Shown in pieces: positions 2,483-48,800 of a stretch of 64,000 nt of DNA. The stretch is taken from NCBI GenBank assembly GCA_964450385.1, contig CAYVEC010000004.1, positions 22,148 through 86,147 of the forward strand, given 5' to 3'. Numbering within the stretch: the stretch's first letter is position 1; the number at the start of each line of letters is the position of its first letter. The DNA comes from an uncultured Planctomycetales bacterium (GTDB taxonomy: Bacteria; Omnitrophota; Gorgyraeia; Zapsychrales; JANLHA01). The position numbers and the translations under genes are program-made. The notes beneath the pieces were generated by a model that searched no databases, was not told where the DNA came from, and was given only the letters and a program-made list of their open reading frames with translations.

Positions 2483-2503
2483 TATGAGACGGAGGCGTTA
2501 GAT

Positions 2504-3388: not shown

Positions 3389-3412
3389 CATAGAGTGACG
3401 CGTTGTGTGACA

Positions 3413-3442
3413 AGGGGACGATTATCGTCCCCTTTTGTATTT
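3413..3442 (+). terminator. Rho-independent terminator after tadC
   Basis: GGGGACGA-ttat-TCGTCCCC perfect 8-bp stem followed by TTTTGTATTT, 25 nt after the tadC stop codon. Confidence 0.6.
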
Positions 3443-3456
3443 AAAAAGGGAAAAAT

Positions 3457-3511
3457 AAATGTCCAATTTTAATGTCCAAAATGTGTCAAGAGGGGTTTTA
3501 ATGTCCAAAAC
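3457..3511 (+). promoter_or_regulatory. Cluster of direct repeats TTAATGTCCAAAA (operator-like); a fourth copy lies at 3955-3968 inside the start of the giant ORF
   Basis: Exact 13-mer TTAATGTCCAAAA at 3469-3481 and 3498-3510 with a near copy AAATGTCCAATTTT at 3457-3470; an identical TTAATGTCCAAAAT recurs at 3955-3968. Three exact copies of an AT-rich 13-mer within 500 bp of a GC-rich genome is non-random. Confidence 0.4.
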
Positions 3512-3674
3512 AGCGACGGATGCGGAAGAAAGCCCTTTCATTTTTTTGGGCGAAAAGGGTCATCCTGTCGGCTGCAAAGACCGAAAAAAATTTTTTATTT
3601 TTTTCTCGACAAAAATTTTTTTCCAATCACCAAAAGACGTTTGATTTTAAACGAGTTAAAGCATAAAAATTTTT

Positions 3675-3702
3675 TTGACCGATTTGCCCGCTCATATATA
3701 AC
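3675..3702 (+). promoter_or_regulatory. Candidate sigma70-type promoter for the giant gene (TTGACC-N16-TATAAC)
   Basis: TTGACC at 3675-3680 and TATAAC at 3697-3702 with 16-nt spacing, about 170 nt upstream of ATG 3871. It is flanked by A/T homopolymer tracts (3581-3630, 3664-3674) that could act as an UP element or bent DNA. Confidence 0.35.
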
Positions 3703-3870
3703 ATGATATACTCTTAGCGCACTAGCCCGGAGGAAAAAAGAACAGCCGTATCGCAGTTGTCAAGAACATAATTGTCCAATCACAAAAGTCGCCTGAACCG
3801 GCGACTTTCTTGTTTTATAAAAACCCCGGGCGTTTTCATAATGTACAGTCTGTAAATATAGGATTCTTTT

Positions 3871-27800: not shown

Positions 27801-30800
27801 GGTCGGAAGGGCCGCAACAGCGGCGGCGAGCGGTATTCGTGATGACGCCGCGACAGGGCAGGCCTTGAAGGCGCACTTAATGGCGCAGACTACGGCGCTC
27901 AAGGATGCGCACACCTATTTCGCGGACGTTGTGCGAACGGTCGAGAGCGGGGCGCCGGTCAGTGATGTTCAGATTAAGACGTGGCTCGAACACGGGCAAG
28001 CGATTGTCAACGGGATTCGCTCCTTAGCGCAATCGAGTGATCCGCTCGCCCAGGCCATGGCGCAGAGTCTGACCGCGGGCGGTGAGTTGGCGCGATGGGA
28101 TTTGGCCGCAGCCATGACGACGATCACGACACTGATGCAGGTTTTGAATGATCCTGCTATTGAGCGGGCATCTATTTTACCCTCTATGAAGGAGGGGGTT
28201 GAGCGGATCGGCACGATTCTAGACAAGGTGGCGCGGACGGCCGCGGCTGATGCGGTGAGGATCGGCAGGACCGCTGATAATCGGCGGTTTGTTCATCTGG
28301 ACGATCACCTGGTCACAGACGCGGTTCCGGTCGCCACGATCCGCCTCGCGGAGAGCGCCGCGCGTCCGGCCGCGGTAGCGATCGGTAGCGAGAAAAAGCC
28401 TGCGCTCGTGACGCGTCCGGCGGTGCCGGGGTCGGTCTTTGTGGCCCAGGCCTCGACCGAGAACGCGGATCCGGCCATGCTCGCCCTCGATGACGGTGTC
28501 TGGTTTAAATATTATACGGATAAACTTTTGGCGAACGATGTTGATGTCTTTGATAAAGTCGTTGTCGCCTTGGCCAGCGATTCTGAATTGAGCGCGGAGA
28601 CGCGGCGCCGTTTTGCCGAGGCGAACGGGGATCCGGCGGCGTTTGAGCAGATTTTAGGCGAGATGATCGAAGGCTCTGATTTGACGGCGCGCCTGAGCGA
28701 GGTGGCGGCGGTCTGGACGAAGGCCTGGGAGGCTGCGCTCAAGTTGAGGCGTGAGCGTGAGGCTGTGGCCGTAACGACAATAGATGGAACGCAAACTATT
28801 GATATTGACGGTGACGGCGGCGCGGCATCTGTGCCTGTGCTCGAGCCGATGCCGTTCACACCGACACTTGTTCCGTTACCGATTCCGGCTCCGGCGTTTA
28901 TTTTAGGGAAGGCGGATGCGGGCGGCCGGTCACGGATCCCGCTTGGCCAAGATGACGCGGCGAATCAGCGGTCGCAGGCGGTCCTTCCGAATGCCGCGCA
29001 GCTGCCGTTACCGAGCGAGACAGACGCTGGCGGCGGGTCACCGGTCCCGGCTGGATCGGGACGGCACGCGGGGAATGCGCCGTTCGTTCAATTAGCCAGG
29101 GCGATCCACCCGTCGGCCGCGGACGCGGTTCGGGCCGGGACGAGTCCCGCACGCACAAGCGACGGCACACGGGCGACCTATATTGATTATTCGCAGGATA
29201 CACGGATGAATTTCGGTTCAACCGGTCTTAGCCCAACGGCGAAGGCCTCTGTCGCCCTTTCCACAAAGGGTCAGACAGACAAGCGGCAAGAGTGGAACGG
29301 ACTTGAAGAAGGTGCTGTAGATGTAGCTGTAGATGGTATTGAAAAGGTGGTTGTGGCTTGTGGGTTAAGCACCGGCGTAAGTGGTGTGACGCTTGGTGAG
29401 GGAGAAACGACGGCGTGGACAGACACGCAAGTAGTAGCTGTAGATGTAGATGTGGTTGTAGAAGTGGCTGTATCTGTACCTGAAGTGGTTGGTGCAGTGG
29501 CGGGGGCTGTTGACTCAGGGATGCTGAGCAGCGGTAACGCGACTGATGAGGGGGTGACCGCGCAGAAAGATGCGCATGTTGATGGTGCTGTAGCTGTACG
29601 TATTGAGAAGGGTGTACGAAGTAGCCGTAGACGTACGCTGTATCGTTCTTTGGATCGGTCGAATGGCGCTGTGCGCGGCCTTGCCGTGATCCTGCCGGTG
29701 GCGTTTGTGAAGGCAGGGGATCGCCTGGTCCGGGTGATCGGTGCTGTTGGGGACCGTATCCAGACGAAGTTGGTTGTTCTTGGTCGTCAACGAGGTGCAG
29801 AAGGTGTTCTGTCGGGCGTGAAGGGTGTGCCGGCTGTCTATGCGGCGGATCCTGTGGAAGTGCCGGCAGATTCCGGGCATCGATTCGTGGGCCGAAATGG
29901 GTCTGCGAACAGGGTTGTAGAGAGCCTGGAAGGTCGTAATCGCTCTGTTATCGGGTCTAGGGGTGCGCGCAGGGAAGATGTGCCTGCTCGCCGCGCTGTT
30001 GTGAACCATGCTGCTGTCTCTGGGCATCGTTCAGCGGCGCCTAGGATCGGTAGAGGTGCTTATAGAGGAAATCGTCACGCTGTCCGCAATGTAGGAACTG
30101 TTATCGGAAGGCGTGTTGTTGATAAGAGAGAGGTGCGTGGACCATTCGGCGGATCGAACGGGATGCCGAGTGGGGTGCGCATGAACGGTCCTGAAGGATC
30201 ACGAGGCTCAACGAAGAGCGCCTCCGATATTCAGGGAGACCGTATTTCTAGTGTCCGTACGATCGTGCGGACTTCTCGCGGGGCACGGGGCCAAGAGGCG
30301 GCCTCGATGTTCCATCAGTTTGTTCTGAGCCGGATTCGCTATACGATCCAACCACGATCAGCGAATATCGCAGAGGCCCTGCGTGTCGCTGGTTCCGCTG
30401 TTGTTTTCTTCTCCGGTTCTCTGCAGGCGGCAGAGGCCGGAACATCCTCTATTCTACCCACACTAGTTATTGCTCATCCTGTGATCATGGTCTTGGCCGT
30501 TTTGGCCGGGATCGCGGCGGTCATGATTCTCTATAATATCAGGTCTAACAAAGGAGGCCGAACATGGTACTCGTCAATACACAACCGGATATTGAATTCA
30601 AGTACTTCATCGACATCCCGAGCAGTCAATGCACGTTCTGCTCAGGAAGGGAATGCGGCACAGGCCGGATCCGGCTCTACCTGGTCTCGCACGAGCGCGG
30701 ACGCATCTATGTCCGACGCGGGCTCGCCGGTGTCTGGGACGAACTCAGTCCAGCTCACCGGGTCAGAATTGAGCGAGCCATTGCGGCAGCGTTTCGCGAT

Positions 30801-33800
30801 CCCCGCATCCCGCGCTACAGCAGCACCGTTAAAGTCTAATGAATTCGTCGAGGTTGGACGTAACCGTCAGGACAGCATCCGGGCGGCTCAGAGGCTCTGG
30901 ATGATGCTCCCGGGCCTGCTGGGGGCGGTTGTCGCGGGCGTGGTTGCGATCTTCTATGTGCCTGGTGTTGCCGCTATGGCGATCGCAATGGTTGTCTTCG
31001 GATCGTTAACCCTGTATAGCATGGTGAAGGTGAAGCGCGACGTCCTGGCGACACAGTATGTCCTTTATATCTCGCCGGTGACAAAGCGCTTGTTTGGGGT
31101 TGTCGCGCTGGCGGGCGCTCTGGTCATGTCCGCGGGCACGGCGCGCGCTGCGGTTGACGACTATGCCGCTGACGGGGCGCGCGAGGTCGAGGCCTTTGTG
31201 CAGAGCTTAAGAGAAGGGGCAGATTCTCGAAAGGCGCAGAATGAGGCAGCCCTTCGGGTGTGGCTCGAGGAACAGCGCCTGAAATTGGCTCAAGATGAGG
31301 CGTCTTCGCCGGCCGCTACTGATGGCGGGGCGGCAGATGAAGAAGCGGTGGGCGCGGAAACCGGATCGCCCGAAGCAACAACCGCGGTCGCGGCCGGGGC
31401 TCCGGCTGAGCCTGCCGCAGCACGAGATGTTGTCCCGGCCCCGGATGCCGTAGTTCCCCAGGAAACAACGCCCGCTGACAATGCACCTGCGGCGGAGGCA
31501 GCAGCCGTTCCTGTGACGATCAGCGATGTGGTCACGCCGCTCCAGGGTGTTCAGCCGCAGGCGGATCCGGTCAGGGTTGAATTGGATGTTGTGACGAGCA
31601 TGCCGAGCTATTTCTTCAGGCTTGATGAATTCTATCGTCATTTTGATTCGGTCAATCATGCCCAGAAGGTGATGATGGCTATGGCGAACGCGGCAAGCGG
31701 CATGCGGACATATTTTATGGATGAGGAGGCTGGGCGGAGAGGATTGTTTGGGCTGAGCGAGTGCGAGTGGAACGAGGCGGTGGGCTCCATGGAACACAGG
31801 GGCCTTGTTGATCGCGGCATGAGTTATGCGATGGTCTTTGATCAAAAGCAGAGCGCCAAGGTTGCTGCCTATCGTCTTCGATCGCTGCTGGACGAGGTGG
31901 CAGCGAGGGATCAGTTTAAGAACCTGCCGAAGGAGGCGATCTTAAGACAGGCCTTGATCGAGTATCGTGCGAATGATGCTGCCGCCGAGCCGTTTGCTGA
32001 TCAGGTCATCGAGGACAGCATCCGCATGCTTAAGGAATATGGTTATCGTCAATATTTTGAGAAAGACGATCCGCTGAATAACGTCGTGTCGAGCCAGGCC
32101 GCAGCGCAGATGATGGCTCCGGTGAACCCGGATGCCCGGATCGATACCGTGACGGACGCGCTGACCGGCGCAACACCCACGAAGACGGACGTTCTTCATG
32201 TTGTCGCGATCATCGAGAAGCCCGAACCCGCTCTCCCGAATGAAAAGGGTGCCGATCAACCGCATCTCCAGGTTGAATGGCCGGAAGGGTTAACAGCGGT
32301 CACGCTCGATCAGCCGCTTCAGGCTGCCTGGATCAATGAAGATGGAACGATCTCTGTGGTCAAGGGACGCGCGGCCGCGGTTGAAAGTCATGACGAGACG
32401 CTGAACGCGGCAGTCCGTGCGGCCCTGGGGGCCCGCCGAGGCCGCCAGCAGGGGATTGTGAAGATTATTCCGCCGACGTTCTGGCAGCTGAATGAGGGTG
32501 AGCGTGACGTGCGCCGCCTCGCCTTGATGGAGGGGCTTGGGGTCCGAGAGAATCGAGTCGTCGGCAGCGCCCCGATCGTGTATTTCTTGGATGAGGACGC
32601 GGAAGTCGCCGCGCGTGGGGTTGATATCGATAAGACACGTTTTGAAAAAACGATCCTCACCGGCAGAACCCAGCGTCTGCCTGGCGAGAAGATCGAGATC
32701 GCGCCGATCCATCTCATGACCCGGCCGAATGCGACTCAGCCGGAGGCGGTTCACGCGGGATGGGCGTATCGGGTGACGACACCGTTCTTGGCCCCGGCAC
32801 GGACCCTGATCGCTGGGACGGTCGAAGAGATCAAGCATGACGGGTACGGGTTTGCGGTCCTGGTTCGAGAGGAGAACGACGGGCGGTGGCAGGTCCTCAC
32901 CCATTTGTCAGGGCTGACGGTCCGTCGTGGTGACACGGTCCAGGCCGGACATCCCGTCGGCGTCGCCGGCAAGTCAGGGAAGGAATGGTATTACATGATG
33001 CGGTTTATCAATCCGGACGGCAGGGCTGATGTCGATAATATTATGGTGGATGCCGGGACCGGTACGGATCTTGGAACATTATTTAATGAGAATGTCACGA
33101 AAGATGTGGCGGCCCAGGTCGAGGGTGTTGTGATCGGGGCGCCAATGACCGCGCTCGCTCAGTTTGATGAGGCGGCGGCACAGAAGGCGGATCACGAGAC
33201 GGCGATCGAAGAGGGTAAGACGGAAATCGAGAGGATGAAACGATTGGCTGCGTTGCCAACTCCAGAAGAGCGGGCAAGGAAGGAAAAGGCGGCTGCGGAA
33301 GGGGCTATTCAAGGGTTGAGCCAGGTGCACACGTTCACGCCAGAGGCGCGGCGGGCAGCGGCTTTAAAGACGATCCGCGAGCTCATGGCGGCTGGCGAAC
33401 AGAGGTCGAAGACCTTCCTCTGGCTGTCATGGGGTTCGTTGATGGCAGGATTCCCTGGTTCCGTGGCCACGGATATCGGGCCGTTGAGTGTGGGGGCCGG
33501 GGTGTCTAATTCCGGGATCCCGATTATGGAGATGTTCAGCCGAGTCGTTGGCCTGACCGAGGCCATGTCGTTCGGAGGCCAAGAGGTCCTTAACGCGGTG
33601 GGTACGGGCGTGGAAGTCGCTAACGCGACCGTGCGAGGGTATCATGATCCTGAGCGCCGCCGCGGCAGCGTGACAACATTTGATCATGCGATCAATACAT
33701 GGTTATTTGAGATCCACACGGTCTTTGTCGGGTCACGTCCCGACGGGAAGGGCGGATGGATCAATGATGAGACCTATCCGCAGATCGGTCTGCCGTGGTA

Positions 33801-36800
33801 TGAGGCCTTAGGCCTGCCGACACGGCTTCTTCAGCATTCCTGGGAACGCGGGGCGTCATGGCTGTCAGGTACGCCGATGCCGAAGGACCCGAACCTCTGG
33901 CGTCCGTTCGTCGGCCGTCCGTTTGAAGGCGTCTGGCAGGCATCAGAAGATGAGCGGCGGATCGTGGCCCTGGCCTGGAATGATCCGGATGTGAAGAAGC
34001 TCTGGGCCGTGGTGCGCGAGGGCGAGTATGTCATGTATGTGAGCTATTCGAATGAGAACGGAGCGGTGACACGCACCGAGCATCTTCGGATCCGGCCGTT
34101 TGTGAGTAAGCAGGGATCGGGCGAGGTGTATGCAGGGAAATTCTTAGAGGATAGCAAGCACCCGTTCCGTGATCTTCAAGACAATACAGTGATGCCGTTG
34201 CCGAATCGTTATCGTCTTGAGCAGCTGCCTGACCTTCGAGAGCCCATGGTCGGGGGGCAGCCGGTGATTGCATGGCAGTCTGATCCTGCCGGCACGACCT
34301 GGACCCCGATCTTTGCCTCTGAGGGGATGCCGATGGTGGCTGACGGGCAAGTCCCGGCGTATGAGAAGGGCGCTTATCACAAGGGGACCCAGACCGCGCC
34401 GGTCAATATTATTCAGGGAATGGCGAACGGGGCCGGCCGGCCTGCGGCCCTGGCGACACGGCCGGCGGTGCTTCAGAATTTCTGGTTTGATGTGAAATAT
34501 AATGATGGCGAGACAGGTGCGTTTGTTGTGCTCAATGCCGACGGGACCTTTAAAGAGATCAAACGATATACCGGGGATGGCAGCGGGCTCCGCCAGACAG
34601 GATTCGCGGTCCGCCGTGACATGAAGGGGGTCCATGACGCGGTTCTCGGCGGAAAATATGGACGGATCGAACTCGCTGATGGATTCCCGCTCGTGGTCGA
34701 CGGTATCGAGCTCAATAATAAGCAGATCTCAGCCGAGGACGCCAAGGCGGCCGAGTCACCGCGCTTCTGGGCGCTCAAGGACGGCCGTTATATCGACGGA
34801 GAGGTCGCGGTCTTTGTGCCGGCCCTGCCGCGAGCCGAGATCCCGATCGCCCGCCGGAACGTGAATGGACGGATCACGTATCTCTATTCTGTCGGAGAAT
34901 TTAACAGCATGCGGGTCCGTTCGAATGAAAAGGCCTGGGGCCTGAGGATTCGGGTGGTTGATCCTGCAGGGAATGTCACCCACGATGAGGCGATCACCCA
35001 AGAGGGAGAATTCCAGCGCTTAGTTGGTGTCGGATTCAACGACGTGTTTACGACCTTTGACCTCGGCGCGAATTTCCCGAATGAATTTAAGATGCTGTTG
35101 GCCGAAGGGGTGCAGGGGAGCGAGGCTACGGCCGAAGGGTATGACATTTTTAGGGCTGATGACGCGCCGCCCACCAGAACGGTTCATGCCCGCGCGGTAA
35201 CGGTTGCGGCGCCGAAATCGATCGCTCGGCCCGTGACGCTTGAGGGGTATCTGGCGGGCCTGAGGGAGAAGACGGGCGGTTCTCTGGCCACGGCCCTTGT
35301 CAGCGAGGCCGAACGCTTTATCACCGCGCGCGCGGAGTTGGATAAGAAGCGCGGGGCCTATGAAGGCGCCATCGCCTCGCTCAGGAAGGCGCGTGAGGCG
35401 AAGGGCGCCGCGAGTGCGGAGGCCCGATCCAAGGCCACGAACGCGATCGAACGGGCCAGCGTCAACGAGAGTGAGAAGATGACCTCGGAAGATGCCCTCC
35501 GGCTGGTTTTGCATAAGATCGCGATCGCGAATGCCGATCATATGACGGTGGATGAATTTTTTGCTCAGCTGGATCGTGATGCTGAGCGTCATGGGTTTGA
35601 GGCCGCGGTCCGCCGTGTCCTGAGGCAGCATTTTAATCAACTGTCGATCTCGCTGATCGGCAGTGATGTCGGTTGGGTTAATGACGAGCTGTCTCGTCTC
35701 GCGGAGGCCGAGCGGCTTAACCGTGAGCTCTATGCGAGCCAGAATTTTATTACCGCCAATGAGGCCTATGAACTTGAAGCGGATCAAGAGGCGTTTGATT
35801 ATATTACAAGCGAGATTGAAGCCTTGAACGAGGCGATCACCGAGCTGACGGATGATATTGAAGATCGGAATTATGATGAGATTTATTTCCAATATCCTGA
35901 CGAGATTATCCGCGGCATCCGGTTCCGCGCTCAAGAAATTCAAGAGGTGATTAACGAGCGCATCCCGTATTGGACGGAACAGGCTCAGATTGCCGCGAAT
36001 TTGGCCGAGCAGAATGAGGTGTATCAGTCGTGGGCGAATTGGACCGCCGCGATGCTTAACTTAACCATGGATCATCTTGAGATCGCGCAGACGGCCCTCG
36101 ACATCCTGCAGTATCATGAAAACGTCTATCTGCGGCCCACATCGGTCTTCTATCCGCCCGGATACGTTCTTGGTCAGCGTCTGGAATTGGCCGAAATGAG
36201 TCTTGATGCTTACACGGAGCAACAGCGGCTGTTAACCGAGTCGTTACAGCCGATCGTCCCGGATTTCTCACGGCTCAATTTGATCCCGCTTCGGCGGATC
36301 TATCCTGAGAACGCGACGCCTGAAGAACGGGCCGCGATCGATGCCGTTCCGACCATTGCCGAGACGCGCGCCTGGATGAGAGGGCGTCTCGACGCGATCA
36401 GTCAGGGGATCGATTATTATAACGAAGGGTTGGCGTACAGCCGCGGGTCCGAAGGGATCTATTCGAACACAACATTGCAGATCATCGATGAGTTCATTGA
36501 TAATCTTGAGCGTGAGGCTGCGTTATATAACAACACCGAATATGGGCTGACAGGTCAGCTTGCCGCGGATCAGGCTCTTCAGCAGGGGAACTCTGAGGAG
36601 ACCCCGCTTGACGTGCTCGAGCGTCAATATCAGTATCAGCAGGCCTTGAGCGAGATTTATGCCGAGCGGGCGGGGCTGATGGCCCAGATGAACGCCCTTA
36701 TTGAGGAGGGTGGGTACTTTAGGCAGGATTTGGAGCGGCGGCTAAAGACGATCCTCCGGCGTGAGCGTGAGTTTGCCTTTAATGCGCATGAGACGGTCTC

Positions 36801-39800
36801 CCGGTTCTCGGGCGCCGGCCGGAATCCGCTCATGGAGATGCTCAAGGCGATGTCGGCCTTGAATGATGCGGCCGTGATCGAGTTCGAGGAAAAGGAGGCC
36901 CTCCATAAGGCAGAGGAGGCCGCCTCAGCCGGCCAGAATGATTTTGTCGCGGCCTTGAATCATGCTGCCTATGAACTTGAAAAGCTGAACCGCGCGCTGG
37001 ATGCGAGCCGTGATGAGGCGATCGCGCGGATCAAGACGCTTCCTATTTCGGAGAGCGAGCGCGAGGAGAGGATCTTCTGGGTCGAGGCCTACCGCGCACA
37101 TCTCTCGACCCTTCCTGAGTACAGCCTGCCGGGGATGGTGATTTTGCCGAACGGCGAAGTGTTCATCCATACGACCGGGGTCAGGGCTGAGATCCCGATG
37201 TCTGACCCGACGCGCGATTTCAGCGAGGCGATGTTCTTCCGCGGCGGCGGCGGGTATCAGCAATTCTACACGTCAACGGAATATGGAAATCTGGATTTTG
37301 CGATCGGTCAGATGGAGGCGGCGGTTCCGGGAGCGGCCCAGCATCAGAGCGCGATGGTGATGGTCAACCTGACGCCTGAGCAGTCGCGGCTGATCCTCCG
37401 GTCGGGGGTTGGGATGAGCGAACAATATCGGTATATCGACAGCGCGGATCCGAAAAAGGACGGCGAGGATCAGACGGAGCGGGCGATCCTCTTCCTTCAG
37501 ACCGTGGGCGCCGAAAGTGCTGACGGCAAATTACGGATGGTCGTGACGGGCTTTGCCCGGGTGAAGACACGGGGCGATCATGAGGTGATCGGCGGGGCTC
37601 AGGGCGGCGTGTATTATGACATCAATCCGGCGAATCAGGTGAAGTTCGAATTCGGGTCTGCCGGGGCTGACAGCCGTTCAGCCGGCAGGATCCTGATCGA
37701 GGATCCGTTCACCGGACGAAAGGTTGTTGACGAGAAGGTCTCGGTCGAGAACAAGGACCGTGTTAATTATCAACAGATGACATTTACCCATGCGCTTAAT
37801 GACAAGACAAAGGTGCGGATTTCGCTTCATCGTGAATTTGAGTCCGCGACCATGGGGCTTGGGTCTGACCGCGTTGACTATTTTGGTATGGTCGGGATGG
37901 AACGGCAATTTAAGGTCGGGGCCCAGACCCTGACCCTGTCGGGCGATGTCTCGCCTGATCTGAACAGGGCTGAGGCCGCGGCTCGGCTCGGACGATTCTA
38001 TGCGAGCGTCGGCATGGTCGAGGAGGCGCGGTATTACCGCCTTGCCGCGAAGATCACCGAGACGCTCACGGCCCAATTCGGCGAGTCTGCTGCGGGCGAG
38101 ATGGCCTACGGTCTTATGTATGGGAAGGGCGGGGTTGACTGGGTCGCGGGGATCAGCGGTGATGCCCCGGCGGCCGGGGTTCGGTTTGATGTAGAGGTCT
38201 TGGGGCATCTTCTCGCGAAATTGCACGGGGAAAATCCCGAGGCGGCGAAGACATTGTGGGAAGTGAACCGGCAGGATATTTCTCAATTGTCCGAGACGGA
38301 ACAGCAGGTCTTCGGCAGCCTCGGCGCAAAGATCGTTGATCAAGCCGTCGACATGCGCAAGCCCGATGAACACCGACGGTCGATGGAGACGTTCTTAGGG
38401 CTTTTTGTGAATGCTGCTACGGGCAACCGTATCCAGCGCAGCCCGCAGGCCATTCAGGAATATCTTGATGCTTTACAATATCCTGCGCCGCGGATGGTCG
38501 CCCAGCTCGTTTATGGATCGGGTCATTCTGATATCGCCGGAACATTCATGCTGACACCTGAGGACGTGGGGTTGGCCTATCAGGTGAAAAAGGTTTATGA
38601 GTCAAATGAGTACCGCGAGCGATATCACCTCGAACGCGATCCGATCGACGCGACGCGTTACACCATGCGCGGCATCTGGACGTCGCCTGAGGGGGAGGTC
38701 CTGCCGTTCACGGTTTCTCTTGGCGAGCGACAGCTCGTCATCCTGCCGGAGCATTTTGACCGGTTGTCCACCATGAAGGGGCTGTCTCACCAGTATCCGA
38801 TGGTTGCGATCGCCGCGAATCAGGCATGGCTCACACAGGAACAGACGAATGTTTACGGCTATGCGTATCATTGGGGCGAGACAAGGGTCTCGATCACGGA
38901 TAACAATTTTGACGCCTGGCTTGACGCGGTTTTCGCCAATGGGACGATCGAGACGATCACCTTGAAGCAGATCGATCGGGCGACAGGGTTGCAGGCGGAG
39001 CGTTTTGTGATGAGGGACGGCCAGGGTCGTCTCTGGGATCTTGAGCTTACGGCCGAAGGGATCAGCCGGATCGCGGATCGGACGCGTGAGATGTTTGCGA
39101 TCGTGACCGAGCATGGGACTGTCTATGTGCCGTCTGAGGATGAGGAAAAAGCTCAGCCGGCATACAGCATGTATTATCGCCGCGATCCCCAGATTGGAAA
39201 ATATATCTATTCTGTTCCTGCGCCGGAGAGGATGAGAGGCTCCGGAAAGACGTTTATCGGCGGGGAAGACGGCAGGGAATATATCGGGGTTAAGGTGCCG
39301 GCCAGCCAGGCGGCTCGTGAGAAGGCCCTTGACGAGAAGTGGAATGCCGAGGAGCCTGATTCAGTTCCGACTCCGGCGGCACAGGAGCAGGGCGGGGCAG
39401 CGACTGAGAAGGCGGCTCCGGCGGATTCTGATAGCGATGAGAAGACGTTAGATGAGTTGAAAAAGGAGCGGGACGCGATCATGAAGTCGATCATGGAGAA
39501 GCCCGCTGCTCAGCCGGCCGTTCCGAACGCGGGTCTTGAGGGGGCGGTGCTTCCGGTTGTACCGGCGGCCCTTCCGGTCATGGCCCCGGCCGTTTTGCCT
39601 GCGCCGATGGGATTATTCGCGCGGTGTTGGGAAGGCGTGGTTCTCGGGATCGAGGGGGTCTTTGGTGTGACCTCGGCGAGCGCTGATGAGACCCCGATGC
39701 CGGCAGGCGCTGATATTAGAGGATGGACGTTCTCTGATGTGGCAACCGGCAAGGGACTTCTGGATGGTCCGGCCTGGAACACAGCGCATCTTACCCCGAT

Positions 39801-42800
39801 AAAGGAGGCCGGTGCGAGCGTCGTTCGAACCTATACACCGCCGTCAGCGGCGTTTATCACGGCGGCCCAGGCCCAGGGCCTTCAGTTGATCGTTGGTATC
39901 CCGTGGCAGTCGCCTGTCCAGGGCGGGGTGGACATTAAGAGCGGCAATTATAAAGACTATATCGCGGCGTGGAAAGATTCAGGCGCTATTCGGTATTGGG
40001 AGCTTGGCAATGAATACAATTATCTCTTTAACAATCATCCGTCGCTGAGCCCGGACGGTCAAGGGGCTGATTCCTGGTACGCTGAATTAGAGAAGGCCGC
40101 TCAGGCGATTCGAGCGATTGATCCCAAGCACAGCGTGGCCACGGCTCATGGCGAGATCCCGAGCGCGGATGTTGTCAAGCGCGTGCCGAGCGTTCAGGTG
40201 TGGGGGATGAATATTTATCGTGATGATAACCCCGGGAGCGTGGTTGGCGAATGCGCTGAGCTTCGCGCCCAGTTCCCTGATCGCGACCTGAGGTTCTATA
40301 TTTCAGAGATGGGGGCAGATGCCTATGACGGCCGCGCGGCCCGCGAGGATGAGGAGGCCCAGGCCCGTATTGAAGCCGGCCTTTGGCGCGATCTCATGTT
40401 GGCGGTCTCGGCTGAGAAGGCCACGGCATGGTTCCACGGCGCGACGATGATGACATGGGTGGATGAGTATTGGAAGGATGCTACTGAAAATAATCCGGAG
40501 CAGCAGAGTGTCGGTTCCACCGGGGCGATCAATAATGCCGGCGACCGTCAGTCTCACGAGGAGTGGTATGGCGCGGTACGTGCGGATGGTACACCGAGGG
40601 CCGTCTATCGGCGGCTGCAGTCGATATGGGGGGGCCAGGGCGACATCGTGATCGTTGTTCAGAACGATGAGCGCTGGCAGCGGAAGGCCCAGTTGTCCCG
40701 CCTGGCAGCGATTGACCGCCGCATCAGGGCCATTGAGGCGAAGAAGGCGGTTGTAGCGGCCGCGGCGGCAAAGACGCCTGTGGATGCTGTTGCGAAGACC
40801 ACGAAGCCTGATGGCGAGGTCGTTTATCTGACAGCAGAACAGGTTAATAGTAACGACATGAAGGTCTCCTTCGTTCATTTAAAAGATCCGCTGAGGGGTG
40901 GGTATCTTTATTTCAATGATACGAACGAGAACGGCGAGATGGATAAGAATGAAGAGACGGTTGTTGAGCCCCAGCCTGATCAATCGACGCGCGGGGCTCG
41001 TTGGCTGCCCGTCTTGACCCCGGTCGTCGAGGCGCAGGGCCGGCAGGCCGTGGTTCAATTTAAAGCGAGCGCGCCGTACGTCCGCGAATTCCGCGCGCTT
41101 CATCAGGGGCGCCTCTACCTCTCCGAGGATGGCAAGACATTAAATATTGGAACCGAAGGGACCGTTGATCAATGGGTCATGGGCCGTATCGGGGTTTATG
41201 ATACCGAGGCGCAGCGTTTCTGGATCCCGTTGACGGTTCGGGGATGGCGCCGGCTCAATGACGCGGATCCGACGAACGGGTACATCACAGGGGTTGAGAT
41301 TGGCAAGGATGCTGCGAATGATCCGGTCTATAAACTCTATGCGCATCAGTTTACGACACAGGCCGGACAAACCGTCGAAGGGGCGGTTATCGAGCTTTCA
41401 CGGCTCGGGCGCACGTATGCCGAAAGTGAGGAGATGCGGCTCATGCGCGCGTTCGGGGTTGCTCAGACGGAAAATTTTGGGTCCGTTCCGTTCTCGCAGG
41501 GCGGCGTGATCCAGGGCATGCTCCGCGATGAGATGTATTTTACAGGCACGCCGGTTGAGGGGAAGACGGATCCGAAGGGGCGGTCGGTTTATCGGAACGA
41601 GGTCAATAACTTTACGGTTCAGGGGCCGGAAAGTCAGCCGATGCCGGCGGGGACAACGGTTTTGAAGATCGGCCGAGAGAGCGAATTCAACGAGACTGAA
41701 CTCCGCAGCCTGAGATCCGGCTATGGCTTCCTCGATCATCCGGTGCACGGTCGGTTCTATATTAACCGGGCCCTCTGGGAACAGTTGTCAGCCGACGGCG
41801 GTATTGAGGTTGAACAGGCCGCAGGCACAGACGGCACCCACAGAGAGGATTTTATCCTCAGGGCCGGTGCCAATGTCCAATATCAGAATATGGATCTTTC
41901 CGGCGCGGTCATGAAGCCGGGCAAACGCGCCCAGCCGTATCTCTATAAGGGGTATGCTGAGAAGGTTTTTGCTGGACATGATATTGTCCTGTTCCGTGAG
42001 GGGCAGGTCGACAAGATCTATCCATCTCTTGATGAATTAACACAATTGTGGCACGAGGACACAGGGCTTCTTGAGATATACGGTGAAGAGGTGATTGATG
42101 AGTTCGAAGAGGCGCAGACGGTGATGCGGATCGCGCGAGATGTCGGGCCGATGAAGAGGGGCGACGTCCTTGAGGTGAGAAAAGGGTCCGCTGCCGCGGC
42201 CTGGTTGGACAGCATCCGCAATAGATATTTTGGAGAAGACGTTCTCGGCGCTTATCACACACCGCAGGGAACGATCCTCATTAGTGAGGAGAGCGAGATT
42301 GCTTCGTTGATCGATCGGGAGGTCGGCAAGTCAGGGAAGATCAATCTCAGAGGCGTTCCGGTTCCTGGCAAAGATGCTCTGACCCTTCATGTGACGCGAG
42401 ATTTTGAAGTCAGAGGGATGGCGGTGGCAAAGGGCTCGGTCTTGGAATTCCATCCGAAGTCCCGGACAGCGGAAAAGATAGAGCTGGCGAAGGAGTCGTG
42501 GGAACTTGGCTCGGTTGATACATTCATGGGTTCATTTGAGTTAAGCGCGGACATGTTGTTGGATGTATTGATCAAAGCGAACGGCCGGATGGTGGTCACG
42601 CCGGCAGTCGACGCCTTCCATGATGTCGCGTATGTCTGGGAAGGACGCGATGTTGAGATCGCTGGCGTGCTCTATGACGAGGCTGTTTCTAATATGAAAG
42701 AGGAGGCCTTTGTCCATGTCAAACAAAGTATAGATGAACTTGCACAGGGCATGGATCTGGTCAGCGGCCGCGACGAGGTGCTCACTCACATCACCCTGCC

Positions 42801-45800
42801 TGATGGCGGTCAGATCCCGTTAACGATCGGGATGCTGTCAGATCTTATGCTCAGGCAGAACGGCGGCGCGAAGGGGGCTCTCGGGATCCTCTCACATCGC
42901 GATGAACGCGGCATCCGTCACGCTCAATGGGTGATCTTTGGTTATGTGCATCATGACGCGTCCGAGACTCGCGTGATCGACAGTGCACCGGTGGAGATGA
43001 CGCTCAAGATGATGGCTGCTATGAAGAGATTGTCTGCGGGCCGGTATGTGGTGACCGAAACAAACGGCACAGCCTACTACATGGATACGATCAATCTTGG
43101 TGAGATGTTGAGCCCGAAGAACGCGGGACGGTATAAGCAGGTTGCCTGGAATGGTGAGGATGGCGAGCCGGTGCGCCGCTACTACCTCGGTGATTCCCTT
43201 GAGACCACCCTGGTCGAGAGCATCGCGGTTTCGGATAGCAAGAATGCCGAGAGACCGATATATCGGGTGATGAGCGATGGGACATTGGGCGAGCAGATCG
43301 CCACGGCTAGATGGATGCGGGAGGTTGATCAAGAATTTGAGATCGACGGGGCACCTGAACGCATTCAGGCTCAGGTTTATGAAAAACGATCCTATCCGTC
43401 AGGGCTTTATGAGGACGCCCTTGGCGTTGCCCGTGACGGGAAGACGGTCCTTGAATTTTATCGGCGGCCGATCATTCTGGCCAATGGGAAATCGGTGGAA
43501 GGCAAGGTCATTGTCGGGTTCCGCAGCCGCGAGGATCGTCCAGTCTATTATTACAACACGAGTTATGAGCTTCTTGACCGCGAGGGGAATCCTCTCCGTG
43601 AGAGCACAAAGGATTGTGTTGTCGGCCGCGCGGTCAGGACCGGGGATCGGTTGGCCGAGCTTCCTGAAGGCCTGCCAGAGGCGTTCCGTAAGGCCTATGC
43701 CCGCGCCGAGGTTGTGGGCGGGATTTCGATCGCGGAGGAGAGGGATTTCAATGATAATTTCGTCCGCGGGTATCTCATCCAGATCGGCGGCAGGGATGAG
43801 ATCATAGGGCGTATTCAACAGTCTTTTGAAGGCACGGAAAGGAATCGTTTTTCGATTGAATTTTCCTTCAAGATAGACGGCAGAGAACAGCTTGTTAAAT
43901 ATGACGCGCACAAGAACGGCACCTTGTACACGACGGATGATGGGCCTCGTTCCGTGTTCTCTGTGGCAGCGGTGGATGCGACGAGCGGCAAGAAGGCGCT
44001 TGCCTATAGCTTTAAGGTAGAGAATCCTACCGAGGGCCTTGGAAAGCTTCTCCGAGTTGGCGCCACGAGTGAAGAGATCCTGCAGGGCCTTGCCGAAGCT
44101 GCTCAAGCCGGGATCCTTCAAGAGGCAACGATCCTTGAGTACCAGGGGGTTCCTGGGGCGCTGGGCCTTGCCAACCAATCAACAACGTATCGTTGGAATG
44201 AAGGATGGGAGGAGATAGACAGAAGCCGGTTGACGTATACCGATGGAAGCCTTATTGAGGACATTAACAATGCCGATGTGAGGCGGCTGCGCGATGGCAT
44301 GGATCGGATCTATTTCAGAGGCCAGAAGTCGTTTAGGCACGACGGCCTTCGTATGACAACTGAGTATGCGGAAAGCAAGACGATCTCGGGGGATATGGTA
44401 GCAACGGCTACGGGCAAGACAGGGGAAAATGGGGACTTCATCCCGAATTCTAAGATCTATAGTTTTTATTCACATGGCGAGCAGCTCAGCGGGGTTTATG
44501 ATGTGGCCTCTAAAACGGTGCGCACGATCTTTGATGAGAACGGACAGGAGAGGATCGACGGATATTCTAACAATACGGCCGTGAAGGACGGGAAGGTTTA
44601 TTACAAGACAAAGCAGGGTCAGGTGACCGATGAGGTGGCCCAGAAGTTTGCCGCAAGCGAGGACAAGTATGATTTTCTGGCAACACATTTGGCTAAGCAT
44701 CATGACATTTCGTTTAAACACATTAAATTGGTTCGAGAAGAAGTGCAGACTATCAATGGCCAATTAGTTGCCGTGATGAGCGGGCATCAGCAGCGCCAGG
44801 AAGACAACCGCCTGCCAGTTTCAGGAACAGCCAGATATATGATGACATTTGAGTATCCGACCCATGGAGAGCGGCGCTTTGCTAATGAGGTCGTGATGTA
44901 TGCGGTGAATCATGGCGACCTGAAGAATCCAGAGGTTTATGGGGAGAAACGCGAGATCAGCTGGTCAAAGAACCCGCGCTTTATGGTGGCGAAAGATGTT
45001 TCTGGTCAACCGGTTGCAGTCGTTGTTTATGACACAGAGGAAACCCGCAAGTCGAAACAAAGTCTGGCTGGCCGCGCGTTACGGTTAGATAACGGCAACA
45101 TCTTCGCAGAATACCAGCAAGGGAGATTTTTATCCACCAGAGATGCGGCGACCTTCTATTCAGAGCAGGGATTCCCTGTTCAGACGGATCGAGTGGCGAA
45201 TGGGTTTGACGCGGCTCTTGGTAATAGCGGCTTCAGGCGGCCGTTCCAGCGCCATTACATTGTTCAGGTCAATCCTGAGGATATGAGCTCTGAGGTCTCC
45301 AAGTTGGAGCGGAAGAACGGTCCTGTTAACGGATACTTCTTTATTTTCAATGAGGATGTCAGGTCAGGGCGCAGCGGCAGGGAGGTCTGCCTGGACATCG
45401 TTTCGTTTAACGATGCCTTCTTTAATAATAATTTATTGGGTGGTCTGCAGATGACAGAAGAGGTCTGGAACAGATATTTCGGTCCGCAGAGTGCCGGCCG
45501 GATTTTTGCGAATGTCGGGATCGGGGGCTATTCGAGCACGCGTGATCTGGTCCAACGCGGTGTTGCTTTATATCACGAAGACGACATGATTTATGAGAAG
45601 CCCAGCCTGATGAGCCCGGAGCGGTGGATGGATTATGAGGGCCGCGGGTTTAAGGAATATTTTGAGATTCATGACCGGCACAATGTGAAGAATTCCTGGA
45701 TCGGCAACGCCGGCAAATTACTTACAAACGAGTGCCTGTATCCGGTTGTCTTTGTAACAACCATCGCGTTTGTGCTCGTGTCGTTGATTACGGTTTTTGG

Positions 45801-48800
45801 TCTGATGAACACTACGGGATTGATTTCAGTGCTTCATTTTAGCGGACTTGGGAAGACCGAGTGGGGCCGCCGGCTGAACGAGGCATCGCAGAGTCTCGGC
45901 GTGAGAATAGCCGAGGCATGGTTGAAAAAGGTGTTTGGGTGGATCGTGGGTGCCGGCGTGATGTTTATGATCGGACTCATCGGGTCTAATATCGTGACCG
46001 GCGGGGAGCTGATCTTTTCGTCGTTCGGGCTTTCGATGGGGTATTGGATGATGGGGATCTGGCTTGGCATTATTTTTATTAAGCACGCCTTCATCCCCTT
46101 GGCCGGCTGGCTGCTCGCCAAGCGGGTGACGCCTAAAACACTGCCGAAACAATATCATCCGATGCGTTTTGATATATGGAAGCGTGTTCGCGCCGGCTTT
46201 ATTGATCGTCATTTGAATCTGGCGGGCGCGTTTTTTGAATATGAAATGATGCTCTATGATCAGGATTTGACACGGCTTATGGATCATTTTTATCCTGATC
46301 AGGGGGGCAATAAACGGATAATGGACTATCGCGTGGAGATTAGCAAAGACATTGAAACCTATAATCGCATGCAAGATGGTGATCCGCAAAAAGAAATACG
46401 GCGTCGTTCGATTATTGAGCGATGGTTTTTAAACCCGATCTTCCAGTTCTGGCTTATGGTCGAAACGGATCAGCACAAGAAGTCCGAAAATTATAATAAA
46501 GGGAAAAAGCCCCTTAAGTTGCTCGGGGTGTACGAGCGTCGCGGATTGGAGTACTTTGTCCTGAGCGACCGGGACCTCAGGCGGTTCTTTGAGGATTTCC
46601 TGAGCGAGGTTAAAAGAAATCCGGACGATTTTCTTAACGAAAAGAAGGAGCCGATGGCGAAATTTAATCTCCTTGAATATCTGATCAGGAAAGAATTGGC
46701 TACAGGGAAGGCCGATGATATCTACATTGCGGCTAAGGGCAGCAAACCTGACAAGGATTTTGATGTGATCGACGAGGCGTTCTTATTTGAGATTAAGAAG
46801 GCATTGAAAGAGAAATATAACGAGGTCGGGCTGAAACAGCCGTCGTTCCCGATTAAATTAAATAAGTGGTGGCACGTGATCTTTGTGTCTGCCGAGGCCA
46901 TCTTGTTTGTGTTAAGCGCCGTTATCCTTATTTCACCGATCTTGGCATGGATCGGCGTTCCTGGCATATCGGTTTTGATCGTGTCGTTGAGGGGCGCCTT
47001 GTTCTATGGCCTGGTCTTAGTCTGGTTTGGACGCATCATTGTGAAGTATCAGAAACATATTGTTTTCCATTTGACGGATTGGCCCAGGGCCTTGTTGAGG
47101 ATATTTGCGACGAAAAATGCTTATTATTATGATAAGGTCCGGACAGAGGATCTTACGGAGATTGTCGGACCCAGGGCGCCAGGATTATTTGATCGTCTTC
47201 TTGAACTTGGATATATCCGCCGGGATCGGGTGAATGCCTCCCGCGGCATTGTTCAAGATCTGAGTAGAGAGGTTACGTCTGAGCAGTTATTCGAAGCTAT
47301 CGGTGAGAGCGGATACACCGAGCAAGAGATCAAGGATGTACATCGTTTGTTGGTCAACCGCCTGAGACGGGCGGACCAGATCGCGGTTAAAGTTCATTTC
47401 TTCAAGGCGTATTGGACATGGCTCTTTTATTCGAATGCCGTTATCTGGTTGGGCGGGTGGTATTTCTTTAGCCTTGTCGCGCCTGGCGCATGGGCATGGG
47501 TTCCGGCGACATTCTTGCTGATCCTGATCTCGCGCGAGTCGATGAGAGGGTGGTGGTACCTCTTTGTTGAAGCGGCCATGCGGAGCATTGAGAAGAATCA
47601 GCGGTGGCATACATATAAATCCTACAAGCAGATTGACTGGGAGGGGATCGGTCTTGTCCGAGGCAATCCGCTGTTAAAAGAATTTTATAAAGAGGTTTTG
47701 GTGAACACGACCTTAAAGAAGATGTATCTTGTCGGGTCGGCCCACGCCGGAGCCCTCCTGCGCTTTATTGACGGGACCAGCGAGAGCATTGCGTCAGAGG
47801 TGCCCGGCATTGGGGCAGAGGCCCAGGAGGAGATCGTCAAATTCTTTAATCAGGTCATTATGGTGACGACCATCGCCGGCAGTGAAGAGAAGTTGATGCA
47901 GCAGATCGATGGGTGGGCATTACAGATGCTTTTACCGGCGGTCTTTAAGGGAACAGGGAAGAAGCGCATTCTGCCGTCTGTGGATTTCCTTGACGGGGAA
48001 GAGCTTGACGGCGAGAAATATAAGCAAAACAATCAGCTGATCAAGTCCGGGTTCTATATGTTAAAACACGCGAAGCATCAGTCGTGGAGGATCTTTATTG
48101 ATGAGGGCTTCCGGAAGGTCTTGGGCATTGAACTTGAACAGCGCGGGATGAAGGGGGTTCGGTTAACAGCCGATCAATGGAACGGGATGGTGGGGCAGCT
48201 CTTGGATTCTGACACGACCCTTCGACGATCGATCGACCTGGTTGCCGATTGCTTGTTGACCAATAAGCCTGGATTGGACAAAAAGAAGGTGCCTGAGGCT
48301 GTGGAGAGGGCGTTTATCACGGGGTGGATCATGTACCGTGCTGATGGGTATCTGAAGACACTGATCTTGAGTGAGATCGCGGCTGAGGCCGTTTATAAAG
48401 TATTTTTACGGTATCGGTATATGAAGATGCATCCGGATGCGGCCAGTCACTCCGAGAGCCAGGTGTGGCAGGGGATCTTCAGAGATGCGGTAACGGCTCG
48501 CTTGGCGCGGGTTGCCAGGCGGGATGGCCTGAGGGATCCGGAGTCAAATGATGTTGAGACCTTGATGAGCGGCCTCAGGAGTGACCTTGAGCGCCGCATG
48601 GGGGCGAAGCTTAGAAGGGATCTCGCGATCGAACTTGATAAGAAGGCCGCCGAGCTTACCGATGAGGAGTATGAGACGTACGTCTATAAAAAGCTTGCGT
48701 TGGCAGAATATCTTCAATTCGTTCATATCCATGAGGACATTGATCCGAATCTAAAAACAGCGGAGCAAAAAGAGGATCCGAAGGCGATCCGTGAGATCCT

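What the first reader, a model, noticed from the sequence alone, without database searches (positions are those of the whole stretch)
39700..40640. GH clan-A-like glycosidase module (WELGNE...ISEMG) within the giant protein
Two glutamates in the sequence contexts typical of the retaining (beta/alpha)8 glycosidase acid/base and nucleophile, about 98 residues apart. The module is flanked by Pro/Ala-rich linkers (39340-39620). It may hydrolyse polysaccharide of a host, prey or biofilm matrix.
Basis: partly seen in the sequence, partly recalled or inferred. Interest (0 to 1): 0.55.

Follow-up and report, generated by a model that had tools for sequence, protein, structure and literature searches.

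The report
Glycosidase domain inside giant Omnitrophota protein
The flagged stretch really is a sugar-cutting (clan GH-A, TIM-barrel) enzyme domain with both catalytic glutamates intact, embedded in a >20,000-residue membrane protein of an Omnitrophota bacterium; this is a sound but fairly ordinary addition to what is already reported for such giant proteins.

Summary
Observation confirmed. WELGNE (nt 39997-40014) and ISEMG (nt 40300-40314) lie 98 residues apart in one open frame of at least 20,046 codons (nt 3862 to past 64000). They belong to a ~320-residue domain (nt 39709-40665).

[quoted passage not shown] They are kept in about 98% of 164 related domain copies.

The closest relatives sit inside long proteins. 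The four traceable to named genomes are Omnitrophota. More distant ~330-residue secreted relatives sit in marine Bacteroidota laminarin-utilisation clusters with GH17, GH30 and GH16 genes.

My reading is a catalytically competent retaining beta-glycanase, GH158-related and probably beta-glucan-directed. It lies in a predicted extracytoplasmic 4,867-residue stretch of an "Archaeovorin"-like giant protein. Substrate and target are inferred, not shown.

Novelty: a new member of a known kind.

The parts
3871..63999 (+). Giant ORF (at least 20,043 codons from the first ATG; continues past the window end) that hosts the module
   Evidence: Single stop-free frame nt 3862-63999. First ATG codons are at 3871 and 3883. 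Pfam domains along it: M23, HEAT_2, NUDIX x2, guanylate kinase, DUF218.
31087..31143 (+). Signal-anchor-like hydrophobic segment (aa 9076-9094, KRLFGVVALAGALVMSAGTARA|AVDDY). It opens the TM-free stretch that holds the GH module.
   Evidence: Kyte-Doolittle scan. The sequence has basic residues before and acidic residues after the segment. The N-in/C-out orientation is inferred from the positive-inside rule.
39340..39620 (+). Pro/Ala-rich linker upstream of the module (aa 11827-11920)
   Evidence: 21% Ala and 14% Pro. Its hydrophobic part, AVLPVVPAALPVMAPAVLPAP, is proline-rich and so is unlikely to be a TM helix. A similar stretch precedes the module in the closest homolog, P0028.
39709..40665 (+). 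Clan GH-A (beta/alpha)8 glycosidase domain (aa 11950-12268 of the open frame)
39997..40014 (+). WELGNE motif just after strand beta4; Glu codon 40012-40014 is the predicted general acid/base (aa 12051)
   Evidence: Aligned to WALGNE of GH158(Pro), whose Glu143 is the reported acid/base. Glu is present in 155 of 158 related domain copies.
40300..40314 (+). ISEMG motif on strand beta7; Glu codon 40306-40308 is the predicted nucleophile (aa 12149)
   Evidence: The family SE(a)G motif aligns to TEFG of GH158(Pro) at chain index 221, which is Glu229, the reported nucleophile. It is invariant in A1 and A2. Glu is present in 156 of 157 copies.
40666..40776 (+). Arg/Ala-rich helical linker after the module. 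No Ig-like domain follows.
   Evidence: Sequence. The AF2 model puts a helix at residues 344-359 of the query.
45745..45801 (+). Next strong transmembrane segment (aa 13962-13980), closing the 4,867-residue TM-free stretch
   Evidence: Kyte-Doolittle mean 2.56. Basic residues follow it (GKTEWGRR).
32788..32982 (+). M23/LytM-like domain in the same TM-free stretch (probably non-catalytic)
   Evidence: Pfam Peptidase_M23, E 2e-7, 31.4 bits against a cut-off of 28.7. The LytM alignment lacks the HxxxD Asp and the HxH motif.

Best explanation
The region encodes one catalytically competent, retaining clan GH-A (beta/alpha)8 glycoside hydrolase domain. Glu12051 (WELGNE) is the general acid/base and Glu12149 (ISEMG) is the nucleophile, working by the standard double-displacement mechanism. 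The domain is most closely related to the endo-beta-1,3-glucanase family GH158 but lacks that family's C-terminal Ig-like domain. It is a recurrent building block, present in 1-3 copies, of very long proteins; those traceable to named genomes are Omnitrophota. Here it lies in a 4,867-residue stretch without transmembrane helices, between a signal-anchor-like segment and the next membrane helix. It is therefore most likely displayed outside the cytoplasmic membrane, together with a LytM-like domain. Shown: fold, homology, conservation of catalytic residues, embedding in long proteins, Omnitrophota origin of the window. Inferred: it cleaves a beta-linked glycan, most plausibly a beta-glucan with beta-1,3 linkages. 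Inferred: the glycan is on a host or prey surface or in a matrix, consistent with the cell-envelope-attacking role proposed for 'Archaeovorin'-type giant proteins.

For: Sequence: phmmer to GH158(Pro) gives E 8.4e-7, aligning WELGNE with WALGNE. The profile of giant-embedded modules against PDB gives GH158(Pro) 2.1e-21, BuGH158 2.2e-11 and GH2 about 2e-11.

Catalytic residues: N-E and E are invariant or nearly so in A1 and A2. Across 164 copies the counts are 155/158 and 156/157, with the beta2 Arg, beta6 Asn/Tyr and beta8 Trp also conserved. The glutamates map to Glu143 and Glu229 of GH158(Pro).

Context: the closest relatives (up to 46% identity) are embedded in proteins of up to 5,805 aa. 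The best genome hits are Omnitrophota MAGs with long open frames. The upstream TadB-like protein has Omnitrophota-named homologs at 69% identity.

Substrate hint: stand-alone relatives sit beside GH17 (57/80), GH30 (44/80), an MFS transporter (64/80) and GH16 (25/80). This matches published laminarin PULs that contain GH158.

Location: KD profile and charge distribution. Stand-alone relatives have signal or lipoprotein leaders. Several long homologs have internal signal, lipobox or TAT-like segments just before the module.

Literature: giant Omnitrophota proteins are reported to carry glycosyl hydrolases, peptidases, NUDIX and HEAT repeats, with mostly extracellular domains.
Against: The module itself reaches no Pfam or NCBIfam threshold. 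The only hit is a sub-threshold GH44 match, 19.1 bits against a cut-off of 25.1. Similarity to GH158 covers mainly beta2-beta6, and the C-terminal third is divergent and poorly modelled (pLDDT below 50 for residues 275-308). The four Omnitrophota loci have none of the laminarin-PUL neighbours, so the beta-1,3-glucan guess rests on distant relatives (31-37% identity). Topology comes from a hydropathy scan and the positive-inside rule, not a dedicated predictor, and published TM predictions for such proteins are called unreliable. No activity, expression or processing data exist for this protein.
Confidence: 0.72

Rival explanations
1. The domain is mainly a transglycosylase that remodels a beta-glucan made by the bacterium itself (capsule or matrix), like GH17 or GH72 glucanosyltransferases. 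It would not be a degradative hydrolase aimed at another cell.
For: Relatives have weak Pfam hits to GH72 (Glucanosyltransferase): P0009 at 26.6 bits against a cut-off of 25.9, and P0004 just below it. Profile A2 hits the fungal 1,3-beta-glucanosyltransferases Gel4 and Gas2 at E 1.5e-7 to 9e-7, and a GH17 protein at 1e-5. Retaining GH-A enzymes can transglycosylate by the same two-glutamate chemistry (established knowledge).
Against: GH158, GH2 and GH157 hydrolases score much better than GH72 or GH17. No glycosyltransferase or synthase domain was detected in the visible 20,046 residues. A suspected GT48-like region gave no hit.
Confidence: 0.12
2. It is an exo-acting GH2-like beta-galactosidase, beta-glucuronidase or beta-mannosidase catalytic barrel that trims terminal sugars from glycoconjugates.
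For: Relatives pass the Pfam Glyco_hydro_2_C threshold. GH2 TIM domains are among the best fold matches. GH2-annotated genes are reported as frequent flanks of giant Omnitrophota genes.
Against: The domain stands alone as a barrel, without the N-terminal sugar-binding and Ig-like domains that complete GH2 active sites. GH158 scores about 10 orders of magnitude better than any GH2 in the profile search. All NCBIfam GH2 equivalog scores for the relative P0011 are far below their cut-offs.
Confidence: 0.08
3. It is a catalytically dead glycan-binding module (pseudo-glycosidase) used only for adhesion.
For: The neighbouring M23-like domain appears to have lost its metal ligands, so degenerate enzyme folds do occur in this protein. 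One relative, P0035, has GND instead of GNE.
Against: In this module all clan GH-A signature residues are intact: Arg on beta2, Asn-Glu on beta4, Asn/Tyr on beta6, Glu on beta7 and Trp on beta8. They are conserved in about 98% of relatives.
Confidence: 0.04

Closest known systems
GH158 endo-beta-1,3-glucanases (BuGH158, PDB 6PAL; GH158(Pro), PDB 9ORO/9P25)
   Different: Only 18-22% identity. The HMM match covers about beta2-beta6 only. There is no C-terminal Ig-like domain: a helical Ala/Arg linker follows instead. The spacing between the glutamates is 98 residues rather than 86. The domain is embedded in a protein of more than 20,000 residues rather than a ~400-residue lipoprotein. Activity is untested.
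Uncharacterised ~330-residue secreted GH-A proteins of marine Bacteroidota and Kiritimatiellales laminarin-PUL-like clusters (P0001-P0024)
   Same: 31-37% identity over the whole barrel, with all catalytic motifs shared: WELGNEYNY, ATAHGE, VWGxNxYR, SEaGAD, DxWWK, NEEYWG.
   Different: These are stand-alone proteins with N-terminal signal or lipobox leaders, and they sit next to GH17, GH30, GH16 and MFS genes. The window's module has none of these neighbours and is part of a giant ORF.
'Archaeovorin'-type giant proteins of Omnitrophota (West-Roberts et al. 2023, bioRxiv 10.1101/2023.11.21.568195; type: the 39,678-aa protein of Velamenicoccus archaeovorus)
   Same: Omnitrophota origin. Giant single ORF. 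Glycosyl hydrolase, peptidase, NUDIX and HEAT_2 content. A weak N-terminal C39 hit. Many hydrophobic helices. Tad/T2SS-F genes next door.
   Different: The protein is incomplete in the window. No glycosyltransferase, methyltransferase or SecA-like domains were detected in the visible part. The papers read here do not name the GH family of this particular module. The one GH fold they illustrate is GH76.
GH2 TIM-barrel catalytic domains and GH157 endo-beta-1,3-glucanase (PDB 9FZ9)
   Different: Profile E-values are about 10 orders of magnitude weaker than for GH158. The accessory domains of GH2 are absent.

Membership tests
Clan GH-A | (beta/alpha)8 TIM-barrel catalytic fold | tested here: met
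Clan GH-A | General acid/base Glu in an Asn-Glu pair at the C-terminal end of strand beta4 | tested here: met
   N124-E125 (WELGNE) directly follows strand 117-122. The pair is invariant in A1. Glu is present in 155 of 158 copies. It aligns to Glu143 of GH158(Pro).
Clan GH-A | Nucleophile Glu at the C-terminal end of strand beta7 | tested here: met
   E223 (ISEMG) lies in strand 218-224. It is invariant in A1 and A2. Glu is present in 156 of 157 copies. It aligns to Glu229 of GH158(Pro) through the family profile.
Clan GH-A | Retaining (double-displacement) stereochemistry | not testable with these tools
   This needs NMR or HPLC analysis of the product anomer.
GH158 | Significant sequence similarity to characterised GH158 members / CAZy assignment | tested here: inconclusive
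   phmmer gives E 8.4e-7. Profile A2 gives E 2.1e-21, but only over profile positions 44-185 of 325. Identity is 18-22%. The dbCAN/CAZy HMM was not available.
GH158 | Two-domain architecture: barrel plus C-terminal eight-stranded Ig-like domain | tested here: not met
   GH158(Pro) and BuGH158 have the Ig-like domain. Here the barrel is followed by an Arg/Ala-rich helical linker. The ~330-residue stand-alone relatives also lack the Ig-like domain.
GH158 | Endo-beta-1,3-glucanase activity with a strict beta-1,3 requirement between subsites -2 and -1 | not testable with these tools
   There is only indirect support: more distant stand-alone relatives co-localise with GH17, GH30 and GH16 genes.
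GH44 (the only Pfam hit of the module) | Score above the Pfam gathering threshold | tested here: not met
   19.1 bits against a cut-off of 25.1, with only 56 residues around the NE motif matched.
GH2 | Glyco_hydro_2_C barrel preceded by sugar-binding and Ig-like domains | tested here: not met
   The module itself has no GH2_C hit. Relatives do have one, but no GH2_N or GH2 Ig domain was found anywhere in the giant protein.
Archaeovorin-type giant Omnitrophota protein | Omnitrophota genome; single giant ORF with glycosyl hydrolase, peptidase, NUDIX and HEAT domains and many TM helices | tested here: met
   with the definition taken. Glycosyltransferase and methyltransferase domains, which are also listed for the class, were not detected in the visible 20,046 residues.

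The most novel reading that the evidence does not exclude
The module represents an Ig-domain-less sister branch of GH158. It was captured repeatedly as a whole secreted-protein gene, leader peptide included, into Omnitrophota giant ORFs. The internal lipobox, TAT or signal-like segments that precede it in several long homologs would then be functional. They would mean that giant proteins act as polyproteins whose extracytoplasmic enzymes are individually anchored or released. A beta-1,3-type glucan on the partner cell or in its matrix would be a specific target of these bacteria.
Probability: 0.15. Interest if true: 0.6.

Novelty: new member of a known kind. Interest (0 to 1): 0.38.

Why it matters
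Giant Omnitrophota proteins are proposed to be weapons for attaching to and digesting other cells, but most of their length has no assigned function. This work pins one ~320-residue block to a specific enzyme clan with intact catalytic residues. It also gives that block a nearest characterised family (GH158 beta-1,3-glucanases) and a probable outside-the-membrane location. That makes a concrete, expressible fragment whose substrate could reveal what surface polymer these bacteria attack or remodel. The same domain family is shared with secreted enzymes in marine laminarin-utilisation loci, which suggests how giant genes grow, by in-frame capture of ordinary secreted enzymes. None of this overturns current views; it refines them.

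Tried and rejected
1. GT48/FKS-like beta-1,3-glucan synthase downstream (aa ~14450-15700). This was suspected from memory while reading homolog P0041. phmmer against PDB found nothing, and Pfam at E<=1 found nothing in the window region, in P0041 or in the P0036 C-terminal segment. Rejected as unsupported.

2. Conserved 620-residue block upstream of the module (aa 11281-11900, collinear with P0030). I looked for a carbohydrate-binding module there. The search for homologous proteins returned no hit and Pfam, NCBIfam and PDB found nothing. It remains unassigned.

3. Source contig. Exact look-ups of the two upstream Tad proteins failed. The cluster look-up gave no accession. Only homolog names point to Omnitrophota.

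4. NCBIfam gave no family for the module.

5. The afdb50 fold library was unavailable.

6. Minus-strand ORFs that overlap the module (40303-40878 and 38602-39114) have no Pfam hits and lie inside the giant ORF. I treat them as spurious.

7. A second copy of the module elsewhere in the giant protein: none found.

8. Conserved pairing of the M23 domain with the GH module in other long proteins: not seen in 20 homologs.
Full report
**1. The observation**

Translating nt 39700-40641 in frame 1 gives an uninterrupted peptide that contains ...AIRYWELGNEYNYLF... and ...LRFYISEMGADAYDG.... The other two frames are full of stops.

WELGNE is at nt 39997-40014 and ISEMG at nt 40300-40314. The two glutamates (codons 40012-40014 and 40306-40308) are 98 residues apart. 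The upstream stretch nt 39340-39620 is 21% Ala and 14% Pro.

The frame belongs to one stop-free stretch, nt 3862-63999 (20,046 codons), that runs off the window. The first ATG codons are at 3871 and 3883. The ORF listing does not list it because it runs off the end. The short motifs alone are not rare: GNE occurs four times in this protein. The case therefore rests on the whole domain.

**2. What it is**

*Homology.*
- phmmer of the module against 1.84 billion representative proteins gave 932 hits at E<=1e-3 and 45 at E<=1e-30. The best was 6.3e-68.
- A word-indexed search found 26 further relatives, mostly ~330-residue proteins with precomputed GH2_C and GH72 Pfam hits.
- On its own the module reaches no Pfam or NCBIfam threshold. 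The only hit is a sub-threshold GH44 match of 19.1 bits.
- Relatives do pass the Glyco_hydro_2_C cut-off.

*Fold.*
- An AlphaFold2 model built on alignment A1 (pTM 0.75, mean pLDDT 71, core blocks mostly 80-97) has eight strands alternating with helices.
- Foldseek against the PDB returned only clan GH-A enzymes: GH158 first (E 1.5e-12), then GH2, GH79, GH157 and GH5.

*Active site.*
- N124-E125 follows strand beta4 (117-122), and E223 lies at the end of strand beta7 (218-224).
- Both are invariant in the alignment with stand-alone relatives. E223 is also invariant among giant-embedded relatives, with E125 nearly so.
- Over 164 domain copies from 150 representative proteins, the acid/base position is Glu in 155 of 158 and the nucleophile position is Glu in 156 of 157.
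- The beta2 Arg, beta4 Asn, beta6 Asn and Tyr, and beta8 Trp are also conserved.
- WELGNE aligns directly with WALGNE of GH158(Pro).
- Through the family profile, the SE(a)G motif aligns with TEFG. [quoted passage not shown]

*Family placement.*
- Profile A1 hits GH158(Pro) at 2.7e-37. A1 includes two GH158-like sequences, so this value is inflated.
- A cleaner profile of the window module plus 19 giant-embedded modules (A2) gives these E-values:
  - GH158(Pro): 2.1e-21, covering profile positions 44-185 only
  - BuGH158: 2.2e-11
  - GH2 enzymes: about 2e-11
  - GH157: 3e-9
  - GH72: about 1e-7
  - GH17: 1e-5
  - GH5: 6e-5
- The nearest known family is therefore GH158. However, the C-terminal third diverges and the Ig-like domain of GH158 is absent.
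- GH5, GH26 and GH113 are not the closest families.

**3. Surroundings**

*Organism.*
- The upstream TadB-like protein is 100% identical to an NCBI protein on a 98,661-bp contig. Its next relatives, at 69% identity and below, are named Candidatus Omnitrophota.
- The three best genomic matches to the module are also Omnitrophota MAGs.
- In those MAGs the module lies in long open frames: at least 2,890 aa in one, and at least 6,433 aa in another where the whole locus is open.

*Host protein.*
- Pfam finds an M23 domain, HEAT_2, two NUDIX domains, a guanylate kinase, DUF218, a HAD-like stretch and a weak N-terminal C39 hit.
- Two T2SS-F/TadB-C genes lie just upstream.
- This matches published descriptions of Omnitrophota giant proteins. 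Those report glycosyl hydrolases, peptidases, NUDIX and HEAT repeats, an N-terminal C39 domain, and Tad/T2SS flanks.

*Recurrence.*
- The closest relatives of the module (34-46% identity) are embedded in proteins of up to 5,805 aa.
- 49 of the 150 representatives are at least 1,000 aa long, and ten carry two or three copies.
- Several share further collinear blocks with the window protein: aa 11281-12197, and blocks between aa 13418 and 15397.

*Location.*
- Hydropathy shows strong helices at aa 8873 and 9027 and a signal-anchor-like segment at 9076-9094. Basic residues precede that segment and acidic residues follow it.
- No further convincing TM segment appears until aa 13962, which is followed by basic residues.
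- By the positive-inside rule, the 4,867-residue stretch holding the M23-like domain and the GH module is extracytoplasmic. This is an inference.
- Two observations support it. Stand-alone relatives have signal or lipoprotein leaders. Several long homologs have internal lipobox, TAT or signal-like segments just before the module.

*Substrate hint.*
- The ~330-residue relative P0011 sits between a GH17-like gene and a GH30 gene. GH16 genes, a 1,150-residue protein and an MFS transporter are nearby.
- Across 80 genome loci, relatives are accompanied by GH17 in 57, GH30 in 44, MFS in 64 and GH16 in 25. The four Omnitrophota loci have none of these.
- Published laminarin PULs have the same composition, including GH158 or an unclassified 'GH0'.
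- This points to beta-1,3-glucan chemistry for the family. It says less about the Omnitrophota branch.

**4. Mechanism**

Shown: a clan GH-A barrel with a complete catalytic apparatus.

Inferred from established GH-A chemistry: retaining double displacement. Glu12149 attacks the anomeric carbon and Glu12051 acts as the general acid/base.

Inferred from relatives and location: endo-type cleavage of a beta-linked glucan outside the cytoplasmic membrane. The target would be a partner-cell envelope or a matrix polymer.

Rivals are self-directed transglycosylation, GH2-like exo-glycosidase activity, and a dead binding module. They are ranked lower for the reasons given in their entries.

**5. Novelty and verdict**

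Glycosyl hydrolase domains in Omnitrophota giant proteins are already reported in general terms. This is therefore a new member of a known kind.

Two things are added here:
- The family-level placement: GH158-related, without the Ig-like domain.
- The link to stand-alone enzymes in laminarin PULs.

Interest is moderate to low (0.38). The main open points are the real substrate and whether the giant protein is processed.

Noticed in passing
window 3862-63999 (+): A single stop-free frame of 20,046 codons runs off the 3' end of the window, so the protein is even longer than what is visible. GC skew is positive throughout (0.03-0.25).
   Followed up: partly
window ~43000-44000: GC content drops from about 0.58 to about 0.51 within the same giant ORF and stays low to the window end. 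This could reflect mosaic origin or the TM-rich composition of the later part.
   Followed up: no
window 32788-32982 (+): The M23/LytM-like domain passes the Pfam threshold. In the alignment to LytM, however, the Asp of HxxxD is not conserved and the HxH motif is replaced by YYM. It is probably a non-catalytic dLytM-type domain, like EnvC or NlpD.
   Followed up: partly
window 51100-51294, 56971-57348, 57517-57975, 58744-58983, 62170-62550, 63361-63471 (+): The C-terminal part of the giant protein carries HEAT_2, NUDIX, a strong guanylate kinase hit (E 1e-27), DUF218, a second NUDIX and a HAD-like stretch. These are nucleotide-handling, cytoplasm-type domains in the same polypeptide as envelope-type domains.
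   Followed up: no
window 4552-4731 (+): There is a weak, sub-threshold Peptidase_C39 hit (17.3 bits against a cut-off of 22) near the N-terminus. This matches the C39 domain reported at the N-termini of Omnitrophota giant proteins.
   Followed up: no
window 18-1232, 1625-2482, 2504-3388 (+): Two T2SS-F (TadB/TadC-like) genes lie directly upstream of the giant ORF. The 404-residue ORF before them has no Pfam hit.
   Followed up: partly
proteins P0041, P0054, P0062, P0063, P0065, P0037, P0102, P0059, P0133, P0147 (homologs, not the window): Internal signal-peptide-like segments sit immediately upstream of the GH module, hundreds to more than 1,700 residues into long proteins. Examples are lipoboxes (FLSGC, LLLSAC), a TAT-like SRRDFI...AFA motif, and AxA sites. 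They look like retained leaders of captured secreted-protein genes.
   Followed up: partly
window aa 13418-15397 of the open frame (nt ~44113-50052): Blocks here are conserved and collinear with other long proteins (P0036, P0044, P0049; up to 38% identity over 360 residues), and part of the region is TM-rich. No Pfam or PDB match was found. A suspected GT48-like similarity was not supported.
   Followed up: partly
L001 (TARA contig) 2237-14699, and 76 further non-Omnitrophota genome loci among L007-L083: The stand-alone ~330-residue relatives form a widespread family. The genome scan confirmed 353 relatives, mostly marine Bacteroidota, and they sit inside laminarin-PUL-like clusters. They may correspond to the gene labelled 'GH0', GH2 or GH158 in published PUL maps.
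   Followed up: partly
proteins P0027, P0036, P0038, P0064, P0083, P0084, P0089, P0107, P0147, P0156: Ten representative proteins carry two or three copies of the module. The window protein has one copy in its visible part.
   Followed up: yes
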